Shown: one piece after another, positions 4,276 to 57,676 of the stretch
Position numbering within the stretch: position 1 is the stretch's first letter
How the letters are laid out: the number at the start of each line of letters is the position of its first letter
Origin: Strigamia acuminata
Lineage: Eukaryota
Reading direction: 5' to 3'
DNA: 64,000 bases
Assembly (NCBI GenBank): GCA_949358305.1
Contig: OX442314.1
Span: 6,200,001-6,264,000, forward strand
The notes under the pieces: generated by a model
Database searches by the model: none
What the model saw: only the letters and a program-made list of their open reading frames with translations
What the model was told of the DNA's origin: nothing
Translations under genes and position numbers: made by a program

Positions 4276-6188
4276 TGTGACGGTGACGACCACAACTCCC
4301 ATTTAACAATGGTACCGGGAAGAGATCGCAATAAATAAACAGTGAATACAATACGAGATAAATACAAGACAGTTTATTGTTGGCAAACAATATGGATGAG
4401 CTAAATTATACATAGGACTAATGCCGACATTTGGCAAGTTAAATCAGCTATTAAACTATACAAAGAATTGGCCAACTGGCCCTAGAATAATATCACTACG
4501 GGTCTGGAATATGGGAGCGGTTTCCCCATCGCTCGACCTGATTATAGATGTCATCTTAAGCCGGATGGCTGTGTCCTGGAGTCCGATACGGCTTCGCTGG
4601 TTTCCTTGGTTCGCTGTGTAAACTATCGCACGTCGATAAATCGAATGATCTGAGCATTGCGGTTGACTTTGTCTGCACCGCCACAACTTTGGGAGGATAT
4701 TGGTGTAAGTAAATGTATTTATTTACTTATCAATATTCCACTTATGAATTATATTTAATTCATATCGTTGTGAATTCTTATTTAGATATTTCGGGAATAA
4801 GTTGTCGTCAACTTATCGGTTATATTGAGTTCAATATGAGATTAAGTCTTCTGACTTGATTTTGGTCCAACTGGTTGTCGAGTTTAAGTTTTTCTGTTAT
4901 AAATAAAATGAAGATTAAGCTTCCCGTCGCAACACACAATTGCCATCGATTAGAATATACGCCTTGCCATGCAGAACGGTATCAAGCGTCCCCGGCGTCG
5001 CAGCACGGTCGTCCATCGAGTGGTTGACGGTACCACGTACACAGGGGTCGATAGCTCGCGGCTCCGCACAGCAGTTTTATCTCTCGCGGTACTAATAATA
5101 GACCGACTGCTTTGGCATCGAATACCATGAGAATCAGCTTGCCAAACACTTGGTGCTACTCGTGGTTACTGTAAAACAGACTGCTTTGGCACCATCAGGT
5201 GAAGGAACCGATTCTCAACAATACCGATGCTACTCGTGGTAACGGAATACGTTCATACCGAAAAAGACAACTTGGTCCTGTCCGGAGGATACTGAATTGC
5301 ACAACGGCGGGTTCTCCTTCGGCGTCGCAACCGTAGACTGTAACATTTATGCAACATAATAATCCCAGCACTTCGACTTCAATTGCCGGCGGTGGCATGA
5401 TTCTGTAGAATCATGCAACGGTTCTTTGCGAATAAATCAACAAAGAACCAAAAGGTTTTTTACGTGAACAACGAATCATATTTCTTAAGTAACAATACCA
5501 AACAGAAAATAATCAAACAGAGCTGCGGAATGGCCGATTGTTTGGGTTTATATAACCTGACTGGATTTAAGGATTAATCCAGTCATCCAATTGGAACATG
5601 GGTTCCACGAATCCCTCCAATCCCGTATCACCGGAAGTGGATACGGAGGAGCATTTATGCAATTTATGCTAATCCTTGTTACAACCGGAACTGGATACCC
5701 AGGACCGGAAATGGGTTCCACCAATCAGATTGATCGGTTGACCGATTGATCGCTAAACATTCTGTCCCGCAGAAATGGAAGTTACATTGTATTTAACAAT
5801 GTCAGATATTTAATATATATTTATATTAATATTTAACACAATTTATTCACTTGATTAAATATACGTTTATATTTAATCATGAGGTTTTCAAGTTCGTATT
5901 CGAATTTATCGCTAATTGCGATCGCGCCATCTAGTGGCAATATGGAGCATTGACAAATGCGGGTTTTAGCAGACGAATCTTCGTAATTATGCCGTGATAC
6001 TTTAGTATCATGTGGAAATTAGTGTTTATTCTTAATAAACGAACATCTTTGTATTTGAAACATCATAAATGACTTTATTCTAGACATTTATCAGTTTTAC
6101 ACAGAATATTGTAAAAATACCATCATATTGGCGCAACAGCGCTTTCTTGATAGAAAATAGGCATTTATAGCCATTGTAAACCGTCATA
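4276..6188 (-). repeat. 5' LTR (~1.9 kb) of the left retroelement
   Basis: Terminal inverted repeat TGTGACGGT / ACCGTCA(T)A. Bounded by the PBS on one side and the host junction on the other. Confidence 0.75.
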
Positions 6189-8180
6189 ACATAATCAGAT
6201 TTTTGTTGGGCCCTCAATAATTGAGTGATTATGATTATTGCAATTATCAACTAATCACAATAATCGCTCATTTAATGAAACCCCTTAATGTTTCGTTACC
6301 ACTTAAAATAGGTTTTGTAGCAGTGTACAGGAAAACAAACAAATTTTAACAGTTTTGGTTTGTGTGGACTAATGTCTTTTAATTTTGTAGATGAATCAAG
6401 ACGCTTAACAGCTAGAATCATCATTCTATTTCAAGGGCTTTATCCTCCAGAACCAGAAGAATGTAACCAGCGTCTATGGGTATGTAAATCCATATAAACT
6501 GGGAATTCTACACATGTTCTTTGATTTAAAAGATTAACACTAGAGGGAATTAGTAACACAGGATCGTAGATGGGTTGGGAAAGTTACTTTTAATAGTAGT
6601 CAGAAACTTTGTAAATTTGAGCAAAAATATTTTTAATTACAATACTTTTAAGTTTTATCTGAGCAATCCAGAAGATGTTAACATTTTGGAACCATTGATG
6701 ATAAAGTATGGATGGTTTAATGCAGTAACACTTCACACATTTAAGGTAACAAACAAGGTGAATAAAGTATGTGTTTTGACTTAATTTCATGAAATAGACT
6801 GTAGGAAGAAATACAAAGCATAATCCCTGTGAAAGAAGCAAAACCGCTTATTCAAAGTGTAGGAATACTTGCGTGCAGAACAATTTATATCAAAGGATTA
6901 ATTGCACGTATGTGTAGCTCTTCATTTTGGGATAAAACAAATGGAATTCTTTCTTTAATATATTATAGCAAAATTTTTCTTTACGTCTGTTTCTTTTTAA
7001 GATTGCCATATATGTCAACATCTAATTTGTCAGTTTGCAATAAGACGGAAGACATTACTAATGCGCATTTTATGTATTTGAACAATTATAATTCAAATCA
7101 AAAAAGATGCAAATGTAAAGAGCTTTGCACAAACACATTTTACCAAACATCTTTTTATGACATGAGATCAAGTTTTCCTTTCGTCACTGTTCTGCAGTTG
7201 AGATTTGCTGATAGTTTTGTAGAGACTATAGAAGAGAAACAGGCATATCCGATGTCGGAATTATTAAGCGATTTCGGCAGTATTGTAGGATTAGCTTTGG
7301 GAATGTCATTGCTGTCTTTTTACATGTGGATTAAAAACAGTTACGATTGGTTTAAAAATTAAAATCAATCAAATTTTATTGAAACTACCTCTATCTGAAA
7401 TAATTATTTTGATTTTGAGGAACCACTGTGCAACTTTGCACCACCAACAAAAACGTTTTATTAATTTCAGCACTTTCTGGCACATTTTACACATGAAAAA
7501 TATAACAAATACGTATGGACAACGGAGTACGGAGTACTAAGCTTATACTGTATAAAATAATACTTATCAATATTTGTGTGAAAACTGAGAGTTTTACTCA
7601 AATGCAGTTTTATTGATTTTAATTCTATTTCAAGTGCCATTTTTATATTTCATAATTTTTCTATTTCATAATTTTTTGTATTTCCTATTTTTGTATTTTC
7701 CAATGTTTGTTGCATTTTTATCTCAACTTTTAAAACTCAATTTGTTTTCTCAAACTCATGTAGTGTTTATATCTTCCACCTTCTCACCCTAAATTCCATA
7801 TCTTAAAACTTACATCTGACCCTTCCTGGAACTAACTAATTACGAGCAGGTGTCCTTCGCTCACCAATGAGAGAGCGCCACCCTTTTCCTTCCCCCCACC
7901 TTTATTATCTAGTCTTTTGAAAATAAAATACAATCAGTGTTCTTTTTACAACCAAGCCAGAAGGTCTCCTTTCTTTTCTTTACCACTTACATCTTAAAAC
8001 CAAACCTAAAGATATTTTATGGGTGTGATTTTAGATAATTATGTGGATTCTGTCAAGGGTCTGTGGTTTCTAGACATGGCAGATATCGCAATGATATAGA
8101 AATATACACTTTCTATATCACATTGATATCGGATCTTAAATCATTGTGCTGCCTGGGGCGTTCACAAGTCGGATTGTTTG
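6189..8180. repeat. Segmental duplicate, near-identical in inverted orientation to ~48607-51237
   Basis: Exons, introns and 3' flank all match. ORFs 6575 and 50642 are almost the same, and the last-exon proteins differ at 7 residues. Confidence 0.92.
6391..7362 (+). CDS. DEG/ENaC (pickpocket-like) channel paralog A, 3' exons only; upstream exons are presumably beyond the LTR element
   Basis: Four GT-AG exons (~6391-6479, ~6653-6745, ~6798-6907, ~7002-7362). Cys-rich thumb, then EEKQAYPMSELLSDFGSIVGLALGMSLLS, which is the pre-TM2/TM2 segment with a G-x-S filter. Confidence 0.8.
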
Positions 8181-9488: not shown

Positions 9489-12400
9489 TTACACTCTTTG
9501 GAGTGTAAATCGACAACCCACATCTTGATTCCGATACCAATTATAAGATTTTAAAATCCAATCGTACAAAGAGAGAAGTGACATTCCCAAACCTAATGAG
9601 AGAATGCTACCGAAATCGCTTAAGAATTGAGATATTGGATACGCTTGTTTCTCTTCTACAATTTCTACAGAACTATCAGCAAATTGCAAAAATAGAAATG
9701 TAATCTCAGGTTCTAGAAGATTTCTCTGCCGAAAAGTACTTTTGTAAAAAATATGTTCGCAAGGTTGTTTGCATTTGCATTGTTTTTGGTTCGAGTCCAG
9801 GTTGCTTAAATACGTGAAGTGAGCGGTAGTTACGACGCTTGTAGTGTTACAAACTGGCAAATTAAGTTTTCCCATGTATGGTAAACTGAAACAAAGAGGA
9901 GATTGGTCAAAGATGCAAATGGTGGCAGTTTATCTGCTGAAAAGGGTTAGGTGTCTTTCGAACAGATTCAATCTGGTGATGCAGCAAATGGATCTGCTTG
10001 CAAGTTTGTGTGTGGTTAATGCTAGTGCAATGACCCATTGCCAACTGATAACTGACCACGGATTAGCTGATCAAGTTTAAAACAGTGAAAATGAAAATAG
10101 ATGTGATAAAATTGCAGCTGATGTATGAAAAGAAATGAAACATCTGAACTCTACCTGCACTTAACACCTCGAAATACATTGTTATGCCAGCAAGCACTTT
10201 TACACTTGAGATAAGCACTTTTGTTCTCTTCACATGGATCGCGCTTTGTATTTCTTCGTACGATCTATTTCGTAAAAGGAATCTTAGTATGAGCATTTAT
10301 ACAATTTATTTCATTTTCAACCTGAAAGTCTCGAAGTACTACGTAGTTGACACACTCATAGTTTATGGTCAATGGTGCCAAAATGTTAACTTCCTCTTCC
10401 CGTTTATTTATGATTAGCTGCGTGTTATTATAATCCAAAATATTTACGTTAATTAAAACTGTAAGTTATGTGCTCAAAAACAATTTTTTATATTTTTCTA
10501 GTCACAATTAGGAATAAGTACGTGTGTGTCCGAACCAAACACGAACCATTTTTATAACTTTTTTCAGCTTTGGATTATCCTAAGAACTTTTTTGGATCTT
10601 TGGGCTCGAATAAATAGACTTTCTCGTTATCTTATTTAAAAATGTTGCTTAAAAAGACACCGAGACTGTCAATTTAACACATTCCAGTTTGGTTGCAAAA
10701 TTACAGGTGATTTCAAGTGAAAATTTTTTTTTACACACCTTTAGTTGCGGATCACAAGCTTCGAGTAAAGTTCGAGGTCTTCTAAAGTAGATGAATAGCT
10801 TAGTGGTTTTTGTGCGTGTTTTATCTGTAATACAGCGGTAAAGTCAGAATAAATTTTCCAACTCGTCTGCAGGAAAACAATTTTTACGATTAAATAAATC
10901 CGGAAAAAAAGAAACATTAAAAATTAAAAATTCCATAATTCAAAAGTAGACTTTGAATACAACCATTAATTAACTAAAATCATAAATTAATTTTGTAATT
11001 ACCATTCCTTATTTGTGAGCAATTACCAAATGGAAGTGAAATAAAATTAATTGATGGTACCTGTAAACATACAACTTTTATTGTTTCGTTTTGGTTTGAG
11101 GAATATGACTGAATATAGTTACATCTTTCCCAAGAGGTTGAACGGTTAACGTTTTGTCGATATTAAGCGATTTCCAGATGTTTTGCAATGACAATTTGCT
11201 GTTAAACAATTGCCAGGGTGATATGTTGCCACAAGTTTTATTGGGTTGTTTAAGTAAGTGTAATCGGGCTTCGTGCATTTCTTCATTTAATTCTTCTCCA
11301 CAAAATGTGACAGAAGGAAATTCGGTGTAGCGTCGTGGACTTATTCGAACGATTGTTGTGCCCGGTTCATCGAGGTAGTAATTGACACGAATGTGCACGC
11401 AATACAAAGTAAATCCTGCAACAACTAATACGAATATTAACTTCAACTTTTCTAATACTGTATATATTTTGGTTTGCTCCTCAGTTTCATCGACTTTTTT
11501 TTTGCACGTTTCATACAGACGCTTAATGTTACTGACGGATCTTTTTCGGTGAATGTTTGATGCAACATAATATAAATACCAAATGATGTCAGGTAATGAG
11601 ATTACGGATAGTCCAATAAACAAGCCCAGATTGCCTCCTAAATCTGACAGTAAGGCAATAACGTCATAAGTGTACCGTTCTTCATATACAGTGACTTTCT
11701 CATTAGTTATTGCTAATGTTAAACTCGTCATTTTATTATTTTTAGCTATGCCGAAATCAGTATGTTGTGTAAAAGTTATATGTTGACAAGGACGTTGACA
11801 ACCGCAATGAGCAATTGGGTCTAGAAATGTAACGACGGACAAAATATAAGAATACATCTCATCTGTATCATTTGCTAATTTGCAAAGTGGCAAATCTAAC
11901 TTCATGAACGGAAATCTTGTATAGAATATATTTAATTAGCTGTTTAATTGTGATACCAAACAAGAAGCATTTTCACCATATGTTCTTACCTGCATTTTAA
12001 CTTTTTAAAGTCGGTATGTAAGCAATTCCGATAGCATTCTCTGTATTCGTCTTCGTTAGAGCATGAACTGATCGGTGAATTTTGCAATATGAACTACAAT
12101 TGAATAAATTAAAAGAAATTTCAAGTCTTTAGATAAAACTTTACTTTGTTACAACTAAAATTTATTGTAGATGTTGAACCAGGATTCATCACTGATACAG
12201 GAAAGTGAATTCCAACATTTTTTAATGTCAGGTAAATCTAAGGGCAAAGAGGAAAAAATTAATGTAGCAATTGCTATTGTAATTTAATCAAGTTACCTCA
12301 TAAAAAGGCTTATTGCATATCGAGTCGTAATTTTTTTTAAAATTCACTGTCAGTAACTTCCCGACAAATGATTTGCTAGAAGATTTAGCTATATCAATGA

Positions 12401-13097
12401 ATAATATTAGTGTAAGAATGTAGGTAGTGATAAATGCTTGTTTGTAGTTACCAAATCGAAATGTTGAGCATATTCCTATTGCACTGTCAGTTTCCGTCTG
12501 AACAACAGAAGTATTTGAATATCCCTATGGGCAAATATAGTATAAATTGTGATTTTTAACTGAATTTCTTTATTGTTTTTTTTAAATTTAAATTTTTACT
12601 TTCATTTTTACACTGTTGATGTCATCAGTATTGTTAGTTGCTTTCCAAAGTGTATCCATATCGAAAGTTGGGTTTTTAATTCTCATTAGTTCATACATCA
12701 AGTCATCGCATAAAATGGATCCTGATGTTTGTTTATTTGCTATACGAGTCTCTTCTAAAAGCCTATTCATTTTCTTTGTGTCTGTACTACAGACCATTAA
12801 GTCTGGTAAAGTAACATTTTCTGATCTACTCGTTACGTCGACAGCTGTAGGATAACTGAAGTAATGCATTATTCTGTCGTATGTCTGATATGTGAGCATG
12901 CACGTGCAAAATGTGAATAAAAGCAGCCAAAGGATGTTATGTTTGCTCCCCCAACCTTTCCTACTGTTTACGAAATCTTCCAATCCGATTATATCGCAGT
13001 TGGGTTTGTTGGTATCATCCTTCACTAAATGGTGAATTGTCAGACGCAGTTGTCTTTTCCCTCTTCTGTATCTGCACATCAAACTATTATTCTCCAT
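9489..13097 (-). CDS. DEG/ENaC family gene encoding two tandem channel domains (TM1-ECD-TM2-linker-TM1-ECD-TM2), ~10 exons, roughly 800 aa
   Basis: Domain 1: TM1 ILWLLLFTFCTCMLTYQ..YFSYPT..LPDLMVC and TM2 LLSDLGGNLGLFIGLSVIS. The same exon (11916-~11123) continues into a second TM1, IFVLVVAGFTLYCVHIRVNYYLDEP..FPSVTFC. The second TM2, FLSDFGSILSLGLGMSLLS, is in the last exon. Exons at about 13097-12600, 12523-12297, 12237-12145, 12094-11990, 11916-11123, 11060-11003, 10825-10740, 10417-10322, 10264-10155 and 9885-9489 join in phase with GT-AG. Confidence 0.85.
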
Positions 13098-18585: not shown

Positions 18586-21500
18586 ATGGCGTCCATTCTC
18601 CGGTTCTCGAAGCATGCTCGTAGGTTTTCACAACTCGGTGTTGCAACTAGAAAAATATCATCGATCCAAAACAGCTTAACTAAAAATGGCCAACTTCCGC
18701 ACTACGAAAAACTTAAGCAAGTGCAAACTTGGTAAGAAAAAAAAAATAATAAATACATAAATAAAAACGAGTTTACGGCGCTCGGTTTAGGCCTAACGAA
18801 TTTCGCCGGTGAAACCGACGCGAAATCGCGAGAAAGCGCCGAAAAAATATGTGAAATCGCATAATCTTAATTAAAATATATGTTCACGTTGTTTCAATTT
18901 TTTTATTTAAATATTTCTTTGTAATTTATTTATTTTTATTTTTATTTTTTTTGGAATAGGTCGATGGCGGCGCGGAGTATTTCGGTTCAAAAAGTGCAAA
19001 CCGATTACCAAAGGGTCGACGAAGCATTGAATCGGTTGGATATGTTCGCACGACGAACGGGAAAAATTTCCATGCGAGCAGTGGAGCAATTGCTCGATGA
19101 TTTCAAGCAATTGGGTGAGATTTTGTTGAAAAAAATGAAGAAGTGCACAAAAAAATCGAATTTTGTTGAAAATCGATGTAAAAAAATGTTTAAAAAATTA
19201 AATTTTGTTAAAAAAAATGTTTAAAAAATTAAATTTTGTTTAAAAAAATGTTAAAAAAATCAAATTTTGTTAAAAAATTGCTAAAAAAAAATAAATTTGG
19301 TTAAAAAAAATGAAAACAATGTTCAAAAATCGAATTGTTGTTGATAAAAAGGTTCAATAATCGATTTATTTTGTTTTATTTTGTTTATTTAATAGGAAAA
19401 GTGAATCCCAATCATAGTCTGTTGGCAATCCACTGCTGCGGTAAATTATTATGCGACGAAACCTTCGAAACGAGGAAGAAAATCATGTCGGACATTTGGA
19501 ATTTTTTGGAGAAAAACGGTTGGCAAAAAATAAAAAATGTTTTAAATTGAATTTATTCATTTAAACATTTATATTGCAGATTGCACGCTGGATATCAGTC
19601 ATTACAACGCTTTAATTAAAGTGCATTTTGAGAACGAGCACAAATTCGACGCGACCGATTTTCTGGCAAAAATCGAATCCAAGCGATTAGCACCAAACAG
19701 GGTCACTTTTCAACGTCTCATTTCATGTTATTGCCAGCAGGGGGACATCGAAGGAGCCGGGTAACTCGATTTTATACATGAAATTCGATTTTTTTTTACT
19801 TTATAATTCGAGTTTTTAGTCTAAAATTCGATTTTTTTTACTGTAAAATTCGATTTTATACGGTAAAATCTTTTTTTTTACTGTAAAATTCGATTTTTCA
19901 CAGTAAAATTCGATTTTTCACAGTAAAATTCGATTTTTCACAGTAAAATTCGATTTTTCACAGTAAAATTCGATTTTTCACAGTAAAATTCGATTTTTCA
20001 CAGTAAAATTCGATTTTTCACAGTAAAATTCGATTTTTCACAGTAAAATTCGATTTTTCACAGTAAAATTCGATTTTTCACAGTAAAATTCGATTTTTCA
20101 CAATAAAATTCGATTTTTCACAGTAAAATTCGATTTTTCACAGTAAAATTCGATTTTTCACAGTAAAATTCGATTTTTCACAGTAAAATTCGATTTTTCA
20201 CAGTAAAATTCGATTTTTTACAATAATAAAATTCAACTTTCTTCGTTTTTTTTTCAACAGGAAAATCCTCGAACACATGAAGAAAGAGTCAATTCCGATA
20301 AACGAAGGCGTTTTTAACGCGTTAATTTTAGGCCATGCGAGAGCAAAGTACGAAAAAAATAAAAACCGACAAAAAAATCGATAAATTTCAATTTTTCCTC
20401 AAATTTTCAGCAACATGGAGGGCGCGAAAGGCGTTTTAGACGTGATGAGGACCGCCAAAGTGCAACCCAGCGTCGACACTTACGCCGCACTAATTAACGC
20501 GTACGCGGAAAAGGGGGACATGCAAAATATCTCGCAAGTACGATCGATTTATCGCCGTCTAGCGCCGTTATTTACGTTTTAAACGCGTTTTAGGTGTTCG
20601 AGGAGCTCGAAAAGGCCGACCTCTACTTGTCGGACGAACATTATTTGGATGTTATTTATTATTTAGCCAGGAATGGACACTCGAAACACGTGAAAGAGGT
20701 GAATTTTTGAGTTTTTTGGGTGAGAATTGTTTAAAATTTTTGTGTTGTTTTGTTTTTAGATAACCAAACGGTTGAGGAAGTTCGTCGGTTTTAACCAGGA
20801 CGCGTCGACGTGTATTTTGAAGTTGATTAATTGCGGACAGGACGAGGTGGCGCTGCAATTGCTGGACGAAATGCCCGGCGTGAGCTCGGACGATGGGAAA
20901 GTGAAGACTTCCGGTCACTTTGTGATTCGCCAGTTGGTCCGCAATGACTGGGTTGAGTGTTTGGATTTGATTTTGTTTTTTGGGTTTGGTTTTTTAATTT
21001 TTTTAATTTTTTTTTTAGGCGGTTGATAAAGTGTTGAAAGTTTGCAAGGATTTGAAGCAGACTGGGAAGAACACGAAGGGGATTGATACGGCGACGAATA
21101 GCGCGTTGCGGTTTGGAAGACCAGGTTGGGGATTGTTTGTGTTGGTGGGATTTGGTGTTTTGGTGGGGGATGAGGCGTGGAAAGTGTTTAACGTGTGGTG
21201 GAGAAATGTATTTTTGTATTAGTGATGCATTTTTTGGTCTAAAAAGTGGTTGATTGGTGTGAAAATAGATTTTTTGGTCTAAAAGGTTGTTGTTAGGTGT
21301 AGGAAAAATAGATTTTTCGGTTTATAAAATAGGTTTTTTGATCTCAAAAGTGGTTGATAGGTCTAAAAGTACAGTTTTTGGACTGAAAAATGGTTGAGAT
21401 GTTTAAAAAATTCGTTTTTCGGTCTAAAAAATACATTTTTCGGTCTAAAAAATACATTTTTCGGTCTAAAAAATACATTTTTCGGTCTAAAAAATACATT

Positions 21501-24500
21501 TTTCGGTCTAAAAAATACATTTTTCGGTCTAAAAAATACATTTTTCGGTCTAAAAAATACATTTTTCGGTCTAAAAAATACATTTTTCGGTCTAAAAAAT
21601 ACATTTTTCGACCTAAAAAATACATTTGTCGGTCTAATCTATATTTTTCGGTCTAAAAAACACATTTTTTGATCTCAAAAAGTGGGATGATAGGTCTAAA
21701 AAGTACATTTTTCGGTCTAAAAAATACATTTTTCGGTCTAAAAAATACATTTTTCGGTCTAAAAAATACATTTTTCGGTCTAAAAAATACATTTTTCGGT
21801 CTAAAAAATACATTTTTCGGTCTAAAAAATACATTTTTCGGTCTAAAAAATACATTTTTCGGTCTAAAAAATACATTTTTCGGTCTAAAAAATACATTTT
21901 TCGGTCTAAAAAATACATTTTTCGGTCTAAAAAATACATTTTTCGGTCTAAAAAATACATTTTTCGACCTAAAAAATACATTTTTCGGTCTAAAAAATAC
22001 GGAGTACATTTTTCGACCTAAAAAATACATTTGTCGGTCTAACCTATATTTTTCGGTCTAAAAAACACATTTTTTGATCTCAAAAAGTGGGATGATAGGT
22101 CTAAAAAGTACATTTTTCGATCTAAAAAGTGGTTCAAGGGGTTTTGAGGCGACAGGATGAGCGAGTTCGCTATAGTTTGACAATTAAGAGTGTATTTGTG
22201 GGGCGACTAATGGCATATTTTTATTTGTAAACACTAAAGTAAATATTAAGTTTGTTTTTGCTTGAACATTAGATCACGCGATCGCTTTCATAAAGGAGAT
22301 GAGAGACGAGGGACTGCCCGTACGCACTCATTATTTCTGGCCGATTTTGATCCACTTGAAGAAACAGAACCACGACGAGTCGAGTACTTAGAAACAAATT
22401 AAACATTTGGTTTTAAATTTTTCTTATTTATATATTATGTCCTAAATTCTTAGAATTGTACGACGTCATCAGAATGATGGTGGACTACGGCTGTCCGGCG
22501 AATTACGCGACATTTGTCGATTATTTTTATCCAAATATAAATACGGACAATTACGAACCAGTGGTCAACGAACTTAACGTAAGTTTGATGATTTTTGCAC
22601 GAAAATTGTTAATGAGAATGCCTTAATAATCTTTAAAGGGTTTGGGCTTCACGTTTGGAGCGATCGTGTGCCCTTTGATCGAGCATTACCTCAATCGCGG
22701 CCAATTGGACAATGCCATTGCATTAAGTAATGCAGGAATTTAAGTATTTAATGCTGATAATTAAAATAAAGTTGGTTTTATTTGTTTTAGCGAAAATCCA
22801 CAGCGTGCGTGTAAACGTGAATAAACTGTTTGGGCCATTGGCGCGCCTGTGCTTCGAGCCTAGCGACGCCACCGTCGATTCCGTGCTAAACGTTCGAATT
22901 TGATAGCGATTAATTATTCAATTACTGAAAATGACACGTTTCTAATTGCAGTTGTTGGAGTTGGTCAGAGATCGGAATTTAATGGAAACTCAAACTGGTA
23001 AAAAATTTAAATTTAAATAAAAAATTGGAAATTTTTTTATGATTTTGTACGTGAAAAATAGATGTTTTTGGCCAGTTTGCGCTGTCGTACGGCCGCTACG
23101 TCAACAGGAATGCGACGAAAATCGAATTTGTTTTGAAGAAAATGCAGTCACGAGTAAAAAATAGAAAAATAATTCAAAAATTGAATAATTTGAAATTCTT
23201 TTTTATAGAATTTGTGCATATCGCCCGAAATCAGCGAACTGATGCAAAAACAATTATTGTTGTCAAATAATAAAGCAATTAGTGAGGTATAAACATCGAT
23301 TTTTGCAATTTCAAATTTTTTAAATTACATTTTATTGTTTTTTGTTTAGTTGTTGAGGAAAATGACAATGGAAATTGACGGCGTCGACAGTCCGACGCCC
23401 CGACAGCCGGTAAAAAGGATTATTTAGACGAGTTATGAGGTTATAATGGCTTTAATTATTTTTTTAGCGCGAAATGAACGTGGAGGAAATGGAAAGACAC
23501 TTGACTGAAGCGAGAAAAAATGGCCTCAACACCAAGGGCATTCTTTCAAAGCTGCTCATGCATTATTGCCGAACCCACGTAAAAATATTGCAAAAATATT
23601 GTACAAATATTGATTGTTATGCACAAAATAATGCATTTTTGATGCGTAATTGAAAAAAATTGATTTTTTTGCTCAAAAAAATGCATTTATGGTGCGAAAT
23701 AGGCATTGTTACACGTAAAAATCATTGCTTTTTGGCCTAAAGAGAGAGAAATTTCGTTTTAAAGACAGCATTCATTTTCTTTTGTCAAAAAAAGTGCATT
23801 TCTGTTGCTAATTCGCCTTTTTCTGTTTGATCAAAACCAGAATGTCGAAAAGGTGGAAGAAATTAAAGCGGAATTGGATTCACTCGATTACGTCTATTCC
23901 GAGGGGATTTTGTGTCTGCTGATGAACCTGTACGCCAACTGCGACAAACTCGACGACGCCAAAGCCATTTGGCAACGCATGTACGTTGGATTAGTGAATT
24001 TAAATGATGAAATTGAATGTTTCGACCGTTAGAAAAGAAAATCACCCGGACGTTGCGATCGACGAACTCAAACTGGTGGATTTTGCAGCGGCGCTCATCA
24101 GGGCGGACGAAATCGACGGTAGAAATAATCGAGTTTATTTAAACATTTTTTTTTTAAATTACTTTTTTCACTTTTCTTCAGAGAGTTTGAAGTTTTTGGG
24201 TGAACAAGCCGTGACCAAGGTACCCGCTCGGAGGGACGCGCCCATTTTTCGGCTTTTGAACGCGGCCGCCGAGAAGGGAGACGCGCAGTTGACGCAAAAG
24301 TTGTTTGATGTAGTCGTGCAGCGTGGTTTGACCGAACCGAACAACGTGGTTTTGGGACCGTTGATCAAAGTGCACATTTTGAAGTAATTAAAATTAAATA
24401 CTTTTTAGTATTTTATTTTAATTTTAATGTTTTTCTTTTTCTCTTCAATAGAGGGGATTTGAAAGGCGCGGTGGAGAAGTTCACGGAGATCTGTCGGAAT

Positions 24501-27802: not shown

Positions 27803-28460
27803 GGATTTATTTCCTCGGGATTTATTTCCACGGGATTTGGATTTATTTCCACGGGATTTGGATTTATTTACACGGGATTTGGATTTATTTACACGGGATT
27901 TGGATTTATTTACACGGGATTTGGATTTATTTACACGGGATGTATTAACACGGGATTTGGATTTATTTACACGGGATTTGGATTTATTTACACGGGATTT
28001 GGATTTATTTACACGGGATTTGGATTTATTTACACGGGATTTGGATTTATTTACACGGGATTTGGATTTATTTACACGGGATTTGGATTTATTTACACGG
28101 GATTTGGATTTATTTACACGGGATTTGGATTTATTTACACGGGATGTATTAACACGGGATTTGGATTTATTTACACGGGATTTGGATTTATTTACACGGG
28201 ATTTGGATTTATTTACACGGGATTTGGATTTATTTACACGGGATTTGGATTTATTTACACGGGATTTGGATTTATTTACACGGGATGTATTAACACGGGA
28301 TTTGGATTTATTTACACGGGATTTGGATTTATTTACACGGGATTTGGATTTATTTACACGGGATTTGGATTTATTTACACGGGATTTGGATTTATTTACA
28401 CGGGATGTATTAACACGGGATTTGGATTTATTTACACGGGATTTAGATTTATTTCCACGA
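27803..28460. repeat. 21-bp minisatellite (acacgggatttggatttattt)n with periodic 15-bp variant units
   Basis: Direct reading; it explains the three overlapping repetitive ORFs. Confidence 0.95.
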
Positions 28461-28842
28461 AATTTCCAGGAAAATGTAGACATTTTTCAAATATGACTTA
28501 TTAGATACGACTTAGACATGATGTGTATGATATACGCGACTTACTTTGTTAGATATGACTGCAATATGACTTAGATAGAAGATGAAATGAATCAATTCCT
28601 TTTCTAATGACGAAGAAATATTTATTTCCACATTTTCCACAACATTTGATGCTTCACGCGTTTACATTTCGCAATTTTTTCTGTTTTTTATCACATTTCC
28701 CAGAGTTTTTCTGTGTTTTAATCACATTTTCCAGAGTCTTGCTGTTTTTTAATCACATTTTCCCAATTTTTCTCTTTTTTTCTCACATTTTCTGGAAGCC
28801 ACGGACCTCCTTCCCTCCGACTTAGTTCACTTCAGTTCATCC

Positions 28843-30390: not shown

Positions 30391-30759
30391 GACCTCGAAA
30401 ATTGTTGTTGTTTATTGGTAATATGAAATGAGCCTCGATTTCGCCACCACCTCGAAACTGGCCCGACTACTGGCACGCTACTGGACCTTTGATTACTGGT
30501 TTTGGTGTCGTGATTTTTGGATTGACCATGGCCACGGACCCGTCCCCTAAATCCTAGGAACAGTTCCCAAATTGGCCAGTATGAGAACAGTCCCTACATA
30601 CTGGCCCTAGAACTGGCCCTATTCATGTGTACAGAATGTTGCTAAGCGACCGTAGCGATTCATTGTTTCTAGTCGCAGGGCGGAACTTTAAGCTGGAATA
30701 ATTGAGGTCGTTTTTTCGAGTAAAAATTTAAAATTTATTTTTTATTTTTGTACAATATT

Positions 30760-49377: not shown

Positions 49378-50232
49378 TAGTTAGTTATAGGAAGGGTCAG
49401 ATGTAAGTTTTAAGATATGAAATTGAGGGTGAGAAGGTGGAAGATATAAACACTTCATGAGTTTGAGAAAACAAATTGAGTTTTAAAAGTTGAGATAAAA
49501 ATGCAACAAACATTGGAAAATACAAAAATAGGAAATACAAAAAATTAAGAAATATAAAAATTATGAAATATAAAAATGGCACTTGAAATAGAATTAAAAT
49601 CAATAAAACTGCATTTGAGTAAAACGCTCAGTTTTCACACAAATATTGATAAGTTTTATTTTATGCAGTATAGTACGTATTTGTTATATTTTTCATTTGT
49701 AAAATGTGCCAGAAAGTGCTGAAATTATTAAACCTTTTTGTTGGTGGTGCAAAGTTGCACAGTGGTTTCTCAAAATCAAAATAATTATTTCAAATAGAGG
49801 TATTGTAGATTCAATAAAATTTGATTGATTTTAATTTTTAAACCAATCGTAACTGTTTTTAATCCACATGTAAAAAGACAGTAATGACATTCCCAAAGCT
49901 AATCCTACAATGCTGCCGATATCGCTTAATAATTCCGACATCGGATATGCCTGTTTCTCTTCTATAGTCTCTACGAAACTATCAGCAAATCTCAACTGCA
50001 GAACGGTGATGAAAGGAACACCTGATCTCATGTCATAAAAAGATGTTTGGTAAAATGTTTTTGTGCAAGGCTCTTTACATTTGCATCTTTTTTGATTTGA
50101 ATTATAATTGTTCAAATACATAAAATGCGCATTAGTAATGTCTTCCATCTTATTGCAAACTGACAAATTAGATGTTGACATATATGGCAATCTTAAAATG
50201 CAATGGACGTTAATAAAAATTATGCTATAATG

Positions 50233-50493
50233 CAGGGGTTCCCAAACTTTTGATCATCGCGACACATTTTTAAGCAAGGCCATCTTCCGCGCCCCACTTC
50301 ATCTACCAGTGCATTAAATTTTTCGAAATTAAAATTTTTCTTAAAATTTTACATCAGTTTGCAAAAAATAATTTTAGTGCATTATTCTAGGGGGGGGAGG
50401 GGGCGTCATGTCTACAAGTTAGTTAGATTGTTACAATTGTGTTGTTGTGCCTCACCAAGAATCAGCTCGTGCCTCACAGTTTGGGAAACGCTG
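50233..50493. mobile_element. hAT MITE (CAGGGGTTCCCAAAC terminus, 8-bp TSD ctataatg)
   Basis: ctataatg|caggggttcccaaact ... agtttgggaaacgctg|ctataatg. Absent from the duplicate intron at ~6910-7000. Confidence 0.88.
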
Positions 50494-51143
50494 CTATAAT
50501 GTGATGAGCTACACTTACCTGCAATTAATCCTTTGATATAAATTGTTCTGCAAGCAAGCATTCCTACACTTTGAATAAGCGGTTTTGCTTCTTTCACAGG
50601 GATTACGCTTTGTATTTCTTCCTACAGTCTATTTCATGAAATTAAGTCAAAACACATACTTTATTCACCTTGTTTGTTACCTTAAATGTGTGTAGTGTTA
50701 CTGCATTAAACCATCCATACTTTATCATCAATGGTTCCAAAATGTTAACATCTTCTGGATTGCTCAGATAAAACTTAAAAGTATTGTAATTAAAAATATT
50801 TTTGCTCAAATTTACGAAGTTTCTGACTACTATTAAAAGTAACTTTTCCAACCCATCTACGATCCTATGTTACTAATTCCCTCTAGTGTTAATCTTTTAA
50901 ATCAAAGAACATGTGTAGAATTCTCAGTTTATATGGATTTATCATACCCATAGATGCTGGTTACATTCTTCTGGTTCTGGAGGATAAAGCCTTTGAAATA
51001 GAATGATGATTCTAGCTGTTAAGCGTCTTGATTCATCTACAAAATTAAAAGACATTAGTCCACACAAACCAAAACTGTTAAAATTTGTTTGTTTTCCTGT
51101 ACACTGCTACAAAACCTATTTTAAGTGGTAACGAAACATTAAC

Positions 51144-51631
51144 GGGTTTCATTAAATGAGCGATTATTATGATTAGTTGATAATTGCAATAATCATAATC
51201 ACTCAATTATTGAGGGCCCAACAAAAATCTGATTATGTGATTATTGCTCCGATAGGCGGAATTGTTTAAATTGTAACCTAAATACGCTGCAATTGTTTAA
51301 AAAAAACTTCCTACAAATAATAATTGCAACTACCTAACTCGTTTCATGTGTTCAATTTAATCTAAACTGAGTAGACTTTGTTATATTATGACCTTGTGTA
51401 GTTGAAGTGGGTCTGGCGCCGCCATGTTGGTTTCAGTTGAGAGAGCACTTATAATCGGCCCAAGTCAGCAGAAAATCATGGTTTGGGGTGATTGATTAGT
51501 TGCTTAGTTGCTTATTTGATGAAATGATTATTCTCGGGATTGGTTGAATCCAGTCACATGACACATCAAGTAATCGACTACGTAATCAAAATAATCAAAG
51601 TAATCAACTAATCGCTCATTTAATGAAACCC
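51144..51631. mobile_element. MITE with 23-bp TIR gggtttcattaaatgagcgatta; its counterpart in duplicate A (6189-6284) is cut by the LTR element
   Basis: The TIR pair is visible at 51144 and 51609-51631. Superfamily is uncertain. Confidence 0.7.
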
Positions 51632-52184
51632 TTTGATTTCCACTTTAGGAATTGTACAGACCTGAAGTACGAAACCAATAGGGATAATTGGATGAGCAAG
51701 GAGAATGTCTGACCTCTCAGACCATAACCTATAAACCCTTTTTTTGCTGTCAGGTCTAATGATCTCTAATGACTCTAAGTTTTGAGTATAATTCGCCTTC
51801 TGTATATTTATTGTAAGCGTTTAATTAACACTCAATTATCAGATGATTCTTGCTAATGATAATGAACCAATAACCCTAAGCTTTGTAGAAGACACTTTGA
51901 TGCTTACAAGGTTCTTATTTGGGTGCACAAGAATTAAATGTAGACAGACAGAAGCAAAAATACTTATACTCTAGCTCACTATAAGGTTGGCCTTTCTCCC
52001 ATTGGCCGAGTCTCTTTACTCCTAACTGGAGACTGTGTACTACCACCAGGAAAATTAGTTTCGGTTTTTTTTCATTTTTGTGATTATTATATGTACAAGT
52101 AATGATTATACAGTAATGGTTTTATTTTAATTGTATTTTATAATAAAATGTTTTTCCATTAATAAAATACAGTTTTATGCTGCT

Positions 52185-52760
52185 TTAATTCAACACAGTG
52201 ATCGTTTGGCCACCGTGGCTACCCATGGTGACCCACGTCACTCCACACACTGCTCTCTGGCCCCTGGTCACCCTCTCCTGTGAGGTAGACTGACCCAGTG
52301 GGGAAGGAGAGAGCTGAGTGGTGTGGGGAAAGAGAGGGTGAGAGAGACAGAGAAAGAGTTTGGACAGCACAGGGTGAGGACGTGTGCTCTTGAGGTCCCT
52401 CAGCCAGGCTGGGCAGTGCAGTGTCCCAGTTGACTGCTCTTCTGCCATTCATCACTGTGACGCTCAGTGACAGGTAGATGTTCCTGTTGCAGCCTCCATG
52501 AGCGGTTACATGGGCTGTTAGGTAAGTAACCACAGCAGAATGACTTATGCCAACTGACCACGTCACTCACGGGCAAACCACCCTGTGAGTGATGGGACGG
52601 TTGTAGGTGTGGTGTGCCCTTTGGCACCAGCACGGGTGATGGGTACTCCGACCCCTAGACAACGGATTAAAGGCCAAAACCAACAATCCGGAGGCTCTGT
52701 CTCCATTATTATGTGAAGGTCCGGTCCCACCCAGGGCAATCAATCCCCAGATTGCCGTGA
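52185..52760 (-). repeat. GC-rich interspersed repeat related to 8449-9050
   Basis: Collinear shared blocks on the reverse strand. Confidence 0.65.
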
Positions 52761-53701
52761 GAGAGACGACCTGTCACAACACATGTTTGTTCAGTTTATT
52801 GATTGCATTGTCAAGAAAGAACACAGTTTTGAATTTTTTGCCGGTACCTAGGCAATCGATTACAATAGGTGCATTCAATTCTAAAGAGTTTTCCCCGTTT
52901 TCCCCGTTTTTGTCGTTTTCGCCGTTTTCCCACACCGGATGTAGACGCATTTGACGTCACATTTCGAAAATCGGTTTTTTCGAAAACCGTTTTTGTGAAA
53001 ACCAGAATTTCGTGGTTTTCGCGTGTTTCAAATCGTTTTCCCGGGCCGCCATTTTGTTTTCGAATAGATCAGCGGTGAAAGCACATACAAAAAGGCAGTG
53101 TTGTATCGAACGAGAACTAATAGTTCGCGTTCGCGAACTTAGTTCGTAGTTCGCGAACTACGAACGCGAACTAGTTCCCCGTTTTGAAAGAACGTGAAAA
53201 ACGAACGAAGTTTGTTTTTTTGACGCGAACTACGTTCTAGTTCAGTTCTCGTTCGTTCACCGAACGTTTTATGTCACAGCCAATCATTGACGATTTCTTT
53301 TCTATTGTTTTGGCGGATTTGGCGGATTTGCAACAATAGTTTTCCATTCAATTCCCTTTCGTAATCGTGTTTTCCGAGATCTTTTATCGCACTAATATGG
53401 AAGCTGAAGCTGTGGAGTTAACCGAAATTCGTAAGAAACCAGTAATGTCTGAATGGTTTGAGTGATTAACACTTCGTAAATATTTACATGGTAGAAAACT
53501 TGCGGATTGTTATAGAAAAGATTCCATTAAAAAAAAAATGGTTTCGAGTAAATTTTCTAGTAAAATTCCAACAAAAAACTTGCACGACAAAATCCATTGA
53601 AAAAGAGAGATAGAATTATACGTCAAAATGTGCACGAAAATTTGGATCCAGGATCGCGATACCGTTGGAAAATAATAAAATAAAAGAATGAACCAATCAA
53701 A

Positions 53702-54556
53702 CCGGGTCAGATCGTTTAGTCGACGGTCGTTTAGTCGACAAGTCACATAAAGCGATCATTTTGTCGACAAGCCGTTTTGTCGACAAACGTTTAGTCGACG
53801 AAATTGTTTAGGTCGATTAGTCGACCAACTGCTTGGTGCCGTCTTGTCGACGGTACATTTTGTCGACGCACGTTTTGTCGACGTAACAGTTTGTCGACGC
53901 ACGTTTTGTCGTTGTTTCGGTGTGTCACAGAGTGTGTCAAGGAGAAACCAAGGCCACACATGACGCGTGGTGTTGTTAGAAAGATGTGTTACTTTGTAGG
54001 CATTTGTGGCCAATATTCTTTCCTAGCGGCCTTTTGTTGGCTGAACGTTGTCACTTTTAATATGTGGAGACATTTTCATCCACTACGAATTTTCCATTCA
54101 ACTCCTCGTGCATCAAATTTCAAGTTTGCATTCCAATCACTGTACGCGTGGATGGTACCAGCTTTGATTCTAATCGCATCCAATCTGCTGATTTTTGTAA
54201 ATGCTCCAGTTGTTGATAGTCACAACGCATTTTGTTTTATATCTATGTACAATACAGCAACAAAGCCCAGTTGCTTTTTCATAATGGCGGCGAATTTTAT
54301 ACATTACTAGTTAATGTTGTTTTAGTAATTATTACTTTCTACAATTTGTGACGGTTTGTGTTTTTAGTTTACATGAAAATAATCGTCTCATTTCACATAC
54401 TATTACACTTTTCACTTAGTCGACGCCGTTTAGTCGACGCCGTTTAGTCGACTAGGTCACTTAGTCGACAATACTCGTCGACTAAGTGACCTTGTCGACT
54501 AAACGGCGTCGACAAAACGGCGTCGACTAAGTGAAAGTCGACTAAACAACCCGGCT
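53702..54556. mobile_element. MULE-like element with gtcgac-rich subterminal arrays and a 9-bp flanking direct repeat ccaatcaaa; innermost element
   Basis: ccaatcaaa|ccgggtcagatcgtttagtcgac ... gtcgactaaacaacccggct|ccaatcaaa. The TIR is imperfect. Confidence 0.65.
53975..54310 (+). pseudogene. Fragment of a Methuselah-like / secretin-family GPCR (TM3-TM5)
   Basis: CYFVGICGQYSFLAAFCWLNVVTFNMWRHF...FAFQSLYAWMVPALIL...CFI matches the Mth-like TM3 (Y-FLA-F-WLNV--F-W--F) and TM4 (SLYAW--P) motifs. Confidence 0.75.
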
Positions 54557-56085
54557 CCAATCAAACGCGTGTTAAACGTATTAACGACGTCGACAATACA
54601 TTCCAGTTGTATTTAACGACTGTTTACATGCAAATCAAATCATTAATTCTTTCAATCATTCGACATGCCGTACAGGAAATCAACAACCAGTCTTGAGGAA
54701 TTATGTTTGCTTACAATCATTACTAAAATAAAAATTTGAATTCGTAAAAAAATATTTGTAAAATGAACTGAACTAGAACTGAACCAGAACTGAACTAGAA
54801 CTTAGTTCACTTGGAGTTTTTGGGAGTGAACGGGAACTAGAACTAGTTCCCTAAATTGAAAACGGTGATGAACGCGAACTAGAACTAGTTCGCGATTTAG
54901 TGAACGAGATACAACACTGCAAAAAGGTAAGTTTATTTAATTTATTTGTGTCTTTAATATTCATTTAATAACGATAAAATGCGGCCGGAGCTAGCCTTCA
55001 TTTGCGCTATCGAATGCGGTCTAATTTCGGGCGCATTTGCGCCGTCGAATGCGGCCAAAGTTCGGGCGCATTTGCGCCGTCGAATGCGGCCAAATTTCGG
55101 GCGCATTTGCGCGATCGAATGCGCTCAATTTTCGACTGATTTCCTGTTCTTAAATGAATAATAATAATACCTTATAATACCTATTAATGTGCAGACTGAG
55201 CATGCTCCGTGGCTGTTGAAACCTGTTGACAGCTGTTGGTAATAACGCTGCTCAATGTTAAAAACCGTTTTCATCGTTTTCGGAAAACGATGAAAAACAG
55301 TTTTTGAAAGCTATTTTAGAATTGAATGCACCTAATGTCTACACCGAATGCAATACTGGTGTTTTGGTCTATTTTTTGTATCACTACACAAGTGAAATGG
55401 CTTGGCCAATGGGAGAAATTGTTATTTTTGAAATTGTCAAACTTGGCGCTGCTGTTGTGACAACATTCGACCAATCAGATTTTACAACATGCACCTTTAA
55501 TTGCATGCTAGTAAAAACTTAAAAGTACTATGGAAAATACCAAGTAGAAGGGCTTTCGATTAAATTGTGAGAAGCCAACTTAAAGTTATGATGAGATTTC
55601 AAAGGGGCAAACGAAATTATAGTAAAATACTGGTACCTGCATTTATTTGTGAACAATGGCCAAACGGAAGTGGAATAAGATTTTTTGTGATGTCTAGTGT
55701 TGCTTTAAATCCAGTAATTTGCTAAAAGTATAAAATAACTGCATAATTATTTTCGAGAATGTTTTAATACTATTACCCGAATTGTATCATCATTGATATT
55801 AATTGTTTCATGCACATTTAGTGAATTCCATATATCTTCCAATGACAATTTCTCATTGAACAATTGCCAGGGCGATGTGTGTTTGCAGGTTTCGTTTGTC
55901 TTTAATCTGGCTTTTTTCCTCTCAGCCGTAAAATTTTCACCGCAAACAGTGACAGAAGGAAATTTGATAATCTGCCGTTGAACTATACTAACGACTTTAG
56001 TTGCAGGGTCATCAATGTAGTGGTTTAAACGCATTTGCAACAAAAATAAAGTAAATCCTGTGCTAACTATTACCAGTATTAACTC

Positions 56086-57676
56086 TGTGACGATTACCTT
56101 CTGGAGATAGCAATTGCTAAACTAAAGTGTGAACTATCTGTGTGAAAATGTAAAATATGCAAACCTGATGTTTTCTCAAAACATATAACATTTATTCCGG
56201 TTTGAACCTTATATAAATACTATGCCTACAAGTGGCTAAAATGACGATAAGTTAAACTATACAGTTATTTGGCAAAAGCCCTGAAATAATATCATTTGAA
56301 GGCTTCAGTCAGGCAATAAGAATTTGTAACGGTCTTATTGCTGTGACGTAAAAGATGTCATCTATGAATGGCTTTGGTTTCTAAATGGTCCGGGGTTTGG
56401 TTCTAAAAAGGCGTGTAAATGGTTAGGCTGGGTGGGTTATATCCGAGAGGTGCGGTTGACTTTTCTGTATCGTCACACACATCGCATCGCAGATAATTAT
56501 TGTAATCAATAATTATCGCGAGATGTAACAATGTGAGAATAAATAGTCATATTAATTCTATGGAATTAATCATGATATTTTAGAGTCACAAACTTAACTT
56601 AAACTGTGAAAATAAGTAAAATATATTAAAATAGCGCCGAGCTATTTTTTGCCCCGAGTGCAATCAACATCTAAGTTAGACTTAAATGTTCCGTCAAACC
56701 AATAACGAATTGAATCGAAATATCTCGCAGGAAAGGTTATCCATCGCCGGGAAATTACTCCACTCGGTCCTGGCTGGCGGGAGAGTAACCGGGAAATTAC
56801 TCCGCGTCGATTACTCTGATAATGCGTCTGTGAAATATAAATACTCCACTCTAGATTCTACATTACCAATGCGTCTGTGAATTTTACTCCACTCTAGATT
56901 CTGCACTCTACAACGGAATGTTGGCATGAAGCTGGAGGGAGTGCGTCTGTGGGTTGTACCCCACTCTAGATACTACACTTAAATGTGTCTGTGAATTACT
57001 CACTCTAGTTACTACATTTCTACAACGGAATGTTGGCATGAAGAGGCGGGCAGTGTGTCTGTGAGTCTTCTACCCACTCTAGATACTTACACTAAATACA
57101 AAGTATTTCTACAACGGATTGTCGGAACGCAGAGAAGTATAATATGTGCTCAAGTAATATCAGTATCAAACAAAAACAGAACAAGAGCGAGCTATATCCG
57201 TTTTGCAGGGGGATATATACTCGGTGAGGAGAATAGCTGTTCAGTGATCCAATGGGATCACTGGGCAGTCAAATCCATCCAATCCCAGATCATAGGAAGT
57301 GGATACTCAGGACATAGTCTTCTACTAGGTCCACTACAGGAACTGGATACGCAGGACACATTTTGGATTAAGTCCCTTTGACTATAATCCAAAAGGAGTC
57401 CAACTCACAGTGGGTGATGGGGGGTGACTTCACCAGGTGTAGAGTTTGCACATAATTCAATAGAATTATGTGACAAATAAATCAACTAGTTTTTAAACAT
57501 CCAAAAGTATTTAAAAGTGTCTAAAGTTGCAGTGGAATAAAATATAAATAGTAATTTATATTTTATTCACTCAAAAATTGTCGAAATTTGAATTTACCGC
57601 TAAAACGCATCAGCGCCATCTATTGGTGAAGTAATCGTCCTATACTAACAAAGTGTATGACAGTGTAACCGTCACA
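56086..57676 (-). repeat. 3' LTR (~1.6 kb) of a Gypsy element
   Basis: tgtgacgat ... accgtcaca termini. Polypurine tract (minus strand aagggggact) immediately adjacent at 57677-57686. Host coding sequence resumes at 56085. Confidence 0.85.

What the first reader, a model, noticed from the sequence alone, without database searches (positions are those of the whole stretch)
9489..13097. A naturally concatenated two-subunit DEG/ENaC channel gene
Seen: a single uninterrupted ORF (11078-11905) runs from the thumb and TM2 of one DEG/ENaC domain (SDLGGNLGLFIGLS), through a ~45-aa basic cytoplasmic linker, directly into TM1 and FPSVTFC of a second domain. The fusion therefore lies inside one exon and is not a gene-model artefact. 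The other exons assemble in phase into two full domains. Both halves share a phase-2 intron before (R/S)(F/L)P(F/Y)M, as expected for an internal duplication. Known: ENaC/ASIC/pickpocket subunits have two TMs and form trimers. Inference: a 4-TM tandem dimer must recruit a monomeric third subunit (fixed A-B-C stoichiometry), assemble in an unusual higher-order form, or be cleaved in the linker. I do not know of a characterised example.
Basis: partly seen in the sequence, partly recalled or inferred. Interest (0 to 1): 0.9.

Follow-up and report, generated by a model that had tools for sequence, protein, structure and literature searches.

The report
Centipede genes fusing two channel subunits
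One gene, likely from a centipede, joins two different subunits of a normally three-part ion channel (DEG/ENaC) in one reading frame; the same join occurs in many predicted proteins of the centipede Strigamia maritima, and the pair likely recruits a separate third subunit to complete the pore.

Summary
Confirmed and extended. An 11-exon, 799-aa model has two DEG/ENaC halves (A, B). One exon (11915-11123) runs from A's TM2 through a 39-aa basic linker into B's TM1. All five intron phases repeat (0,1,0,0,2 twice). The halves are only 24% identical, so the duplication is ancient. The junction is conserved: 23 of the best 150 homologues match across it in one stretch. Twelve junction-bearing proteins are named S. 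maritima; the four closest (50-57% identity) keep the spacing within one residue. B halves form one clade (100/98). A full-length relative folds into two DEG/ENaC subunits, closest to centipede BRTNaC1 and PDPNaC1. Best reading: an uncut A-B dimer plus a single-domain third subunit (0.55); assembly is untested. Against: no RNA evidence, a cryptic acceptor would truncate B, and listed differences from sibling sequences look neutral (22 nonsynonymous, 5 synonymous). Ten literature searches and three scan look-ups found no description; one key paper was unavailable. Separate three- to five-domain models exist in other animals.

The parts
12600..13097 (-). Exon 1: ATG at 13097, N-tail without HG motif, TM1 of half A (about 12935-12879), finger
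12452..12524 (-). Exon 2 (half A; conserved GxC strand); followed by a 63-nt phase-1 intron
   Evidence: alignment with S. maritima P0001
12297..12388 (-). Exon 3 (half A, palm)
12145..12237 (-). Exon 4 (half A)
11990..12093 (-). Exon 5 (half A, thumb cysteines); ends in a phase-2 intron
11123..11915 (-). Exon 6, the junction exon: thumb and TM2 of A, linker, TM1, FPSVTFC and finger of B
11564..11662 (-). TM2 of half A, with GLS filter motif (11614-11606)
   Evidence: positions by arithmetic from the exon start
11447..11563 (-). 39-aa basic linker, cytoplasmic by topology (inferred)
11390..11446 (-). TM1 of half B; FPSVTFC follows at 11320-11300
11003..11060 (-). Exon 7 (half B; GxC strand); followed by a phase-1 intron
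10739..10824 (-). Exon 8 (half B, palm), acceptor 10825 chosen by homology
10844..10867 (-). Cryptic upstream acceptor (10867) and in-frame TGA (10846-10844) that would truncate half B
   Evidence: stretch matched with no differences in both DNA runs
10322..10417 (-). Exon 9 (half B)
10155..10264 (-). Exon 10 (half B, thumb cysteines); ends in a phase-2 intron
9489..9885 (-). Exon 11: thumb and TM2 of half B (about 9635-9549, GMS at 9587-9579), stop at 9491-9489
49831..56100 (-). Paralogue Q: B half open over six exons (phases 0,1,0,0,2; one 4.6-kb intron), 51% identical to B; no A half or start codon found upstream
6391..7362 (+). Paralogue P: last four B exons only, 97-99% identical to Q (duplicated fragment)

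Best explanation
The gene encodes two different DEG/ENaC subunits, A and B, in one reading frame joined by a 39-residue linker; the chain is predicted to stay uncut, to fill two neighbouring positions of a three-subunit cation pore, and likely to recruit a single-domain subunit as the third. Shown: the open 11-exon frame, both halves being DEG/ENaC, and the conserved junction. Inferred: an ancient duplication gave A and B; the last exon of A was joined to the first exon of B; the joined gene then multiplied into a large family. Inferred: the join fixes two of three subunits and their order. The third subunit could come from a single-domain gene (S. maritima has them, e.g. P0033, P0038), from a B-only gene such as paralogue Q, or from this gene by skipping between matched introns. 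A sensory role (chemical, proton or heat sensing) is inferred only by analogy with BRTNaC1 and PDPNaC1.
For: Open frame with repeated intron phases. The junction is matched in one stretch by 23 of the best 150 homologues (rows picked by eye, tallied). 35 of 164 fetched proteins show a TM2 unit followed by a TM1 unit. Twelve of those are named S. maritima, 8 of the A-B type and 4 of a separate repeat type. GxS-to-FPSVTFC-cysteine spacing is 104 here and 104, 104, 104, 103 in the four closest relatives. The linker aligns over 38-39 positions at 36-45% identity with three of them. GxS-to-proline spacing is 75-102 in 18 relatives at 21-55% identity, and A's GxS is present in 19 of 19 rows. B halves are one clade, 12 of 12, support 100/98; A halves 9 of 9 at 75/90. 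The AF2 model of full-length relative P0022 has pLDDT 70, pTM 0.66 and four long helices; each half aligns to whole DEG/ENaC chains, best BRTNaC1 Z 21.5 and PDPNaC1 Z 19.9. B versus Q gives dN/dS 0.38. Skipping at any of 5 matched intron pairs gives an open 414-421-aa single-domain product. The closest characterised relative is a homotrimer without HG (PMC12714832, passages), and engineered ASIC concatemers form working channels (PMC10329638, PMC4529235, passages).
Against: No transcript evidence; all homologues are predicted proteins, mostly automatic gene models, and several are plainly wrong outside the junction (P0001 carries a duplicated N-terminal part; P0006 runs into an intron). The spacing statistic is biased, because proteins were found by matching across the junction. 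The cryptic acceptor at 10867 would truncate B, and retention of intron 6 would give a 565-aa three-helix product. Among 28 listed exonic differences between this copy and run contigs (from 40 shown of about 290), 22 are nonsynonymous, 5 synonymous and 1 a near-terminal stop, as expected under neutrality. One contig per run has a 1-nt deletion in exon 3. pTM 0.66 does not show trimer geometry; the fold of the junction exon itself is weak (pLDDT 59, pTM 0.30). Engineered concatemers also give cleaved or shorter by-products (PMC4529235, PMC10329638, passages). Trees used LG+G4 without mixture and hold long branches.
Confidence: 0.55

Rival explanations
1. The tandem assembles without any separate monomer. 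Three chains build two linked pores (A2B and AB2), or two chains build one trimer with one half left outside, or an (A-B)2 four-subunit pore.
For: Both halves keep GxS-type filters (GLS, GMS) and whole folds in a relative. A 39-residue linker could reach further than one neighbour (inference). A tetrameric state was argued for ASIC1a from cross-linking (PMC4529235, passages). An ENaC dimer structure exists (PDB 9BTU title).
Against: The relative PDPNaC1 is a homotrimer (PMC12714832, passages) and trimers are the rule in this family (general knowledge). Single-domain genes are available in S. maritima. The short linker, nearly fixed in length among the closest relatives, fits a link between neighbours.
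Confidence: 0.17
2. The chain is a polyprotein, or the gene mostly makes single-domain products. The linker is cut, or splicing between matched introns gives A/B chimeric monomers, and ordinary trimers form.
For: All 5 matched skips are in frame and stop-free. One database model, P0106, reads as an A-start/B-end chimera. The linker is rich in K and R.
Against: Only 2 of 19 junction segments hold an R-x-K/R-R motif, and the linker would face the cytosol (inferred). P0106 is an unnamed predicted protein, not a transcript. Cleavage gives no reason for near-constant linker length.
Confidence: 0.12
3. The family is real but this particular copy is under relaxed selection or is a young pseudogene.
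For: Neutral-looking 22:5 ratio among the listed differences. Cryptic acceptor with a stop. Truncated neighbours P and Q.
Against: 799 codons open with canonical GT-AG introns and 13 cysteines counted in each half. dN/dS 0.38 against Q. The 28 differences are a small, non-random subset.
Confidence: 0.12
4. Two neighbouring genes only look joined (read-through by chance, or an assembly error).
For: No RNA was seen.
Against: No stop, intron or start region lies between TM2 and TM1. Contigs of two DNA runs cover the linker without gaps. The same join is present in diverged relatives.
Confidence: 0.04

Closest known systems
BRTNaC1, heat-activated DEG/ENaC of Scolopendra subspinipes mutilans (PDB 8YMR/8YMW; PMC9974506)
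   Same: Best sequence and fold match of the family profile (E 2e-41; Z 21.5, rmsd 4.8 over 325 residues); compact centipede DEG/ENaC subunit.
   Different: Single 431-aa subunit with two TM segments; about 20% identity; no sign was tested that its gating is shared.
PDPNaC1, proton-dissociation-gated channel of S. s. mutilans antennae (PDB 9JF7; PMC12714832)
   Same: Best PDB sequence hit of the junction exon (E 1e-10); Z 19.9; also lacks the HG motif.
   Different: 421-aa single-domain homotrimer; GAS where this gene has GLS and GMS.
Insect pickpocket subunits, especially ppk17 (PMC8438182)
   Same: Nearest named single-domain hits in word-based searches (31-58% identity over short parts); Pfam PF00858.
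   Different: Single-domain; they sit apart from the A and B groups in the tree. The paper's passages note 46 of 578 PPKs with 3-5 predicted helices but do not describe tandems.
Engineered ASIC/ENaC concatemers (PMC10329638, PMC4529235)
   Same: Subunits joined C-to-N on the cytoplasmic side; used to fix stoichiometry and order.
   Different: Artificial, with 8-19 added linker residues; here the whole stretch between the helices is 39 aa and is kept by evolution.
Uncharacterised S. maritima proteins T1JEH2, T1JGJ4, T1JEG4, T1IYF0, T1JD34, T1J963, T1ITL7, T1IPM9
   Same: Same A-TM2/linker/B-TM1 junction.
   Different: On record only as 'uncharacterized' gene models, many partial; 22-57% identity to the junction exon.

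Membership tests
DEG/ENaC superfamily (Pfam ASC PF00858) | ASC profile match above the curated cut-off | tested here: met
   62, 46 and 48 bits against a cut-off of 23.6 for three exons; 2 stretches in the junction exon
DEG/ENaC superfamily (Pfam ASC PF00858) | Hand-shaped extracellular fold between TM1 and TM2 | tested here: met
   Tested on full-length relative P0022: both halves align to whole ASIC/ENaC/BRTNaC1 chains. The window's own spliced protein was not folded whole; its junction exon gave a weak model.
DEG/ENaC superfamily (Pfam ASC PF00858) | Post-TM1 FPxxTxC motif, cysteine-rich thumb, GxS in TM2 | tested here: met
   FPSVTFC in B and a degenerate equivalent in A; 13 cysteines counted per half; GLS and GMS
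DEG/ENaC superfamily (Pfam ASC PF00858) | Pre-TM1 HG motif | tested here: not met
   No HG anywhere in the 799 aa. Not strictly defining: PDPNaC1 lacks it and conducts (PMC12714832); a T/S-x-h-HG motif is in 43% of insect PPKs (PMC8438182).
Canonical DEG/ENaC subunit | One ASC domain and two TM helices per chain | tested here: not met
   Two ASC domains in one frame. Four helices: two by hydropathy, two by homology and the relative's fold.
Canonical DEG/ENaC subunit | Trimeric assembly | not testable with these tools
DEG/ENaC superfamily (Pfam ASC PF00858) | Cation conduction, amiloride block | not testable with these tools
   Needs electrophysiology.
Insect ppk17 (subfamily VII) | Groups with ppk17 orthologues in a tree | tested here: not met
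   P0007, P0008 and P0161 form their own clade (100/99), apart from the A and B halves
BRTNaC1/PDPNaC1 orthology | Supported sister relationship | tested here: inconclusive
   P0085 (same length and match range as PDPNaC1) fell at weakly supported places and was left out; BRTNaC1 was not identified among the tree rows.

The most novel reading that the evidence does not exclude
Geophilomorph centipedes have an expanded family of naturally concatenated sensory DEG/ENaC channels that break the three-separate-subunit rule outright: A-B chains assemble with no free monomer into two covalently linked pores (A2B plus AB2) or a four-subunit pore, while other animals have independently evolved single-chain trimers.
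Probability: 0.15. Interest if true: 0.93.

Novelty: new variant of a known kind. Interest (0 to 1): 0.8.

Why it matters
A two-subunit chain does not fit a three-fold pore, so the family poses a sharp and testable question about DEG/ENaC assembly. Laboratories build concatemers to fix subunit number and order; here evolution did so and kept the join through deep divergence, which gives natural linkers and fixed A-B interfaces to study. It would also change how centipede sensory channels are counted and tested: a tandem expressed alone may be silent without its third subunit. The three- and five-domain models seen in other animals suggest concatenation arose more than once and may have been dismissed as annotation error.

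Tried and rejected
Whole-genome search: no genome is held. RNA evidence: no RNA holder listed; the two runs behave as DNA, with contigs over introns and no joint matching an intron. A closer look at linker variants was not obtained. Complex prediction of A + B + monomer was not available, so there is no verdict. My first model read through the 63-nt intron in half A and suggested that B had lost a strand or was frameshifted; rejected after alignment with P0001. Recent duplication within the subfamily: rejected (p-AU 0.007; group named after seeing the tree, no mixture model). A and B as one ancient pair: one side of a branch at 70/89, not shown and not rejected. P0106 pulled one B half into the A group; it was dropped as a chimera, and one search also left out P0085, P0075, P0071, P0090, two repeat-family units and the non-centipede multi-domain units. 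Units under 230 profile positions were excluded from all trees. A decayed A half upstream of paralogue Q: not significant at DNA level (32 of 300 shuffles scored as high) and in 5 of 6 protein tests; one frame reached 3 of 200. A profile word search returned only its first sequence. Atlas searches added only 'ASC'. Literature: ten searches showed no natural DEG/ENaC tandem in their listings. The S. maritima genome paper (PMC4244043) has no occurrence of five DEG/ENaC terms in its main text (supplements not read). Vizueta et al. 2020, which reports S. maritima DEG/ENaC candidates, is not held and may bear on novelty.

Full report
Observation. The minus strand holds a stop-free frame at 11935-11078 with thumb, TM2 (GLS), a basic stretch, a second TM1 and FPSVTFC. 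Pfam ASC matches it in two stretches, and also the first and last coding exons. An 11-exon model from ATG 13097 to stop 9489 has 2400 nt, 799 aa and only GT-AG introns; intron phases are 0,1,0,0,2 in half A and again 0,1,0,0,2 in half B. The junction exon is 11915-11123: the last exon of an A gene and the first exon of a B gene with no intron between them. The linker between the helices is 39 aa. One point rests on homology: exon 8 must start after the AG at 10825, since the AG at 10867 adds an in-frame TGA. The matching exons are 92 nt in half A, 86 nt here and 89 nt in paralogue Q, which favours 10825. Hydropathy at threshold 1.5 picked only the two inner helices.

Independent DNA. No whole genome is held. 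Two coded runs hold the stretch; their contigs cover introns and show no joint that matches an intron, so they behave as DNA. 853 and 675 contigs were laid, many at 90-95% identity, which points to many related copies or alleles (depth is no copy number). Gapless contigs cover the linker, and none of the 12 listed indels (of 16) lies in the junction exon; one lies in exon 3 in one contig per run. Of the 40 listed differences (about 290 in all), 38 fall within the gene span and 28 are exonic: 22 nonsynonymous, 5 synonymous, 1 stop in the second-last codon. That ratio equals the neutral expectation (N/S sites 3.8). The subset is small and biased, but it is a caution for this copy.

A family, not a one-off. 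Word searches with the junction exon found S. maritima T1JEH2 and T1JGJ4 at 51% and 50% identity over 97% of the query. The HMMER search found 316 proteins at E up to 0.001 and listed 150; in 23 of them one stretch runs from TM2 into the next TM1 (picked by eye, tallied). A local profile test found such a junction in 35 of 164 fetched proteins. Of the 21 proteins looked up by name, plus one named, 12 junction-bearing ones are S. maritima; the other family-like rows were not looked up. The four closest keep the GxS-to-cysteine spacing at 103-104, against 104 here. With three of them the linker is 36-45% identical and TM2 73-79%. In 18 relatives the GxS-to-proline spacing is 75-102, and GxS is present in all 19 rows; this set is biased toward similar spacing by the way it was found, and includes one protein (P0028) of the repeat type. 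That the window comes from a geophilomorph-like centipede is inferred from these best hits only.

History. The two halves are 24% identical, while each is 53% (A) and 46% (B) identical to the same half of T1JEH2. In a 47-row tree all 12 B halves form one clade (100/98); the 9 A halves lie on one side of a branch at 75/90, and A plus B at 70/89. Holding this subfamily's A and B together is rejected (p-AU 0.007). The model was LG+G4 with long branches, and the rows left out are listed under Tried and rejected. Reading: an old duplication gave A and B, they were joined once, and the joined gene radiated. A second S. maritima group (P0019, P0020, P0021, P0028) has near-identical repeats and falls in a separate clade with single-domain models, so concatenation likely arose twice there.

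Structure. AlphaFold2 on the full-length relative P0022, with 23 aligned sequences, gave pLDDT 70.4, pTM 0.66, four long helices (38-71, 359-414, 418-452, 755-790) and a low-confidence linker. Residues 41-389 and 420-784 each align to whole DEG/ENaC chains; the best are BRTNaC1 (Z 21.5) and PDPNaC1 (Z 19.9), then ASICs at Z 13-15. The same two centipede channels top the sequence searches of the PDB. The junction exon alone folds weakly (pLDDT 59, pTM 0.30) as helix-loop-helix across the linker. The protein has no HG motif; PDPNaC1 also lacks it and works as a homotrimer (PMC12714832, passages). BRTNaC1 is a two-TM heat-activated antennal channel (PMC9974506, passages).

Mechanism. Shown: frame, family and fold of a relative. 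Inferred: the chain is made whole, and A and B occupy neighbouring positions, leaving one position open. Candidates for the third subunit are single-domain S. maritima proteins (T1IGW0, T1JKA6), a B-only gene such as Q (B half open over six exons, 51% identical, dN/dS 0.38, but no start codon or A half found within the 7.9 kb upstream), or this gene's own skip products, since all five matched-intron skips give open 414-421-aa monomers. Engineered ASIC concatemers form channels but also shed shorter species (PMC10329638 and PMC4529235, passages). I put 0.55 on tandem plus monomer, 0.17 on all-tandem assemblies, 0.12 on cleavage or mostly monomeric products, 0.12 on this copy being relaxed, and 0.04 on artefact. 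Assembly could not be modelled here.

Novelty. Ten searches listed no paper on natural DEG/ENaC tandems. I also read passages of PMC8438182, PMC5203786, PMC7067487 and PMC7738191, and ran a term search in PMC4244043 with no hits in the main text. No supplements were read, and Vizueta et al. 2020 was not held; either could mention double-domain models. The S. maritima models are public but labelled uncharacterized. The scan's earlier notes hold nothing on this DNA or protein. Verdict: a real, conserved architectural variant of a known channel family; interest 0.8.

Noticed in passing
P0041 (KAG5672929.1, Polypedilum vanderplanki), P0136 (KAF5291553.1, Abscondita terminalis): Gene models with 3 and 5 ASC domains; GxS-to-next-cysteine spacings of 75-98 at the junctions measured. 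The three-domain one would be a single-chain trimer if real; both could be fused models of gene arrays.
   Followed up: partly
P0042, P0045, P0069 (also P0067, P0162; P0074 similar): About 1000-aa unnamed proteins with two full DEG/ENaC-like domains flanking a reduced middle unit. P0042 and P0045 lie on Logan contigs of 3.4 and 3.7 kb, hardly longer than the ORF. Candidate independent single-chain trimer family; taxon not determined.
   Followed up: partly
P0019, P0020, P0021, P0028 (S. maritima T1IU28, T1IZL2, T1ITG7, T1IL99): Second concatemer group with near-identical repeats and signs of three or more units in a row; separate clade from the A-B family.
   Followed up: partly
P0086 (Helobdella robusta), P0072 (Oedothorax gibbosus): Two-domain models whose halves are each other's nearest relatives, with long gaps between domains; possibly fused gene models.
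   Followed up: no
window 49831-56100 (-) and 6186-7838 (+): Paralogue Q has an open B half with an AG directly before TM1 and no A half nearby; its 3' part is duplicated in inverted orientation at 92-98% identity as fragment P.
   Followed up: partly
window 33685-34188 (+): Weak Cyclin_N match (E 3e-4, below the cut-off); likely an exon of a cyclin gene.
   Followed up: no
window 28843-30411 (-), 35713-36483 (-), 58339-60030 (-): Long ORFs of 522, 256 and 563 aa without a Pfam match; the first is very rich in K, R and S.
   Followed up: no
window 19763-20240, 21225-22128, 27803-28465, 48043-48530: Tandem-repeat arrays seen in the self-comparison.
   Followed up: no
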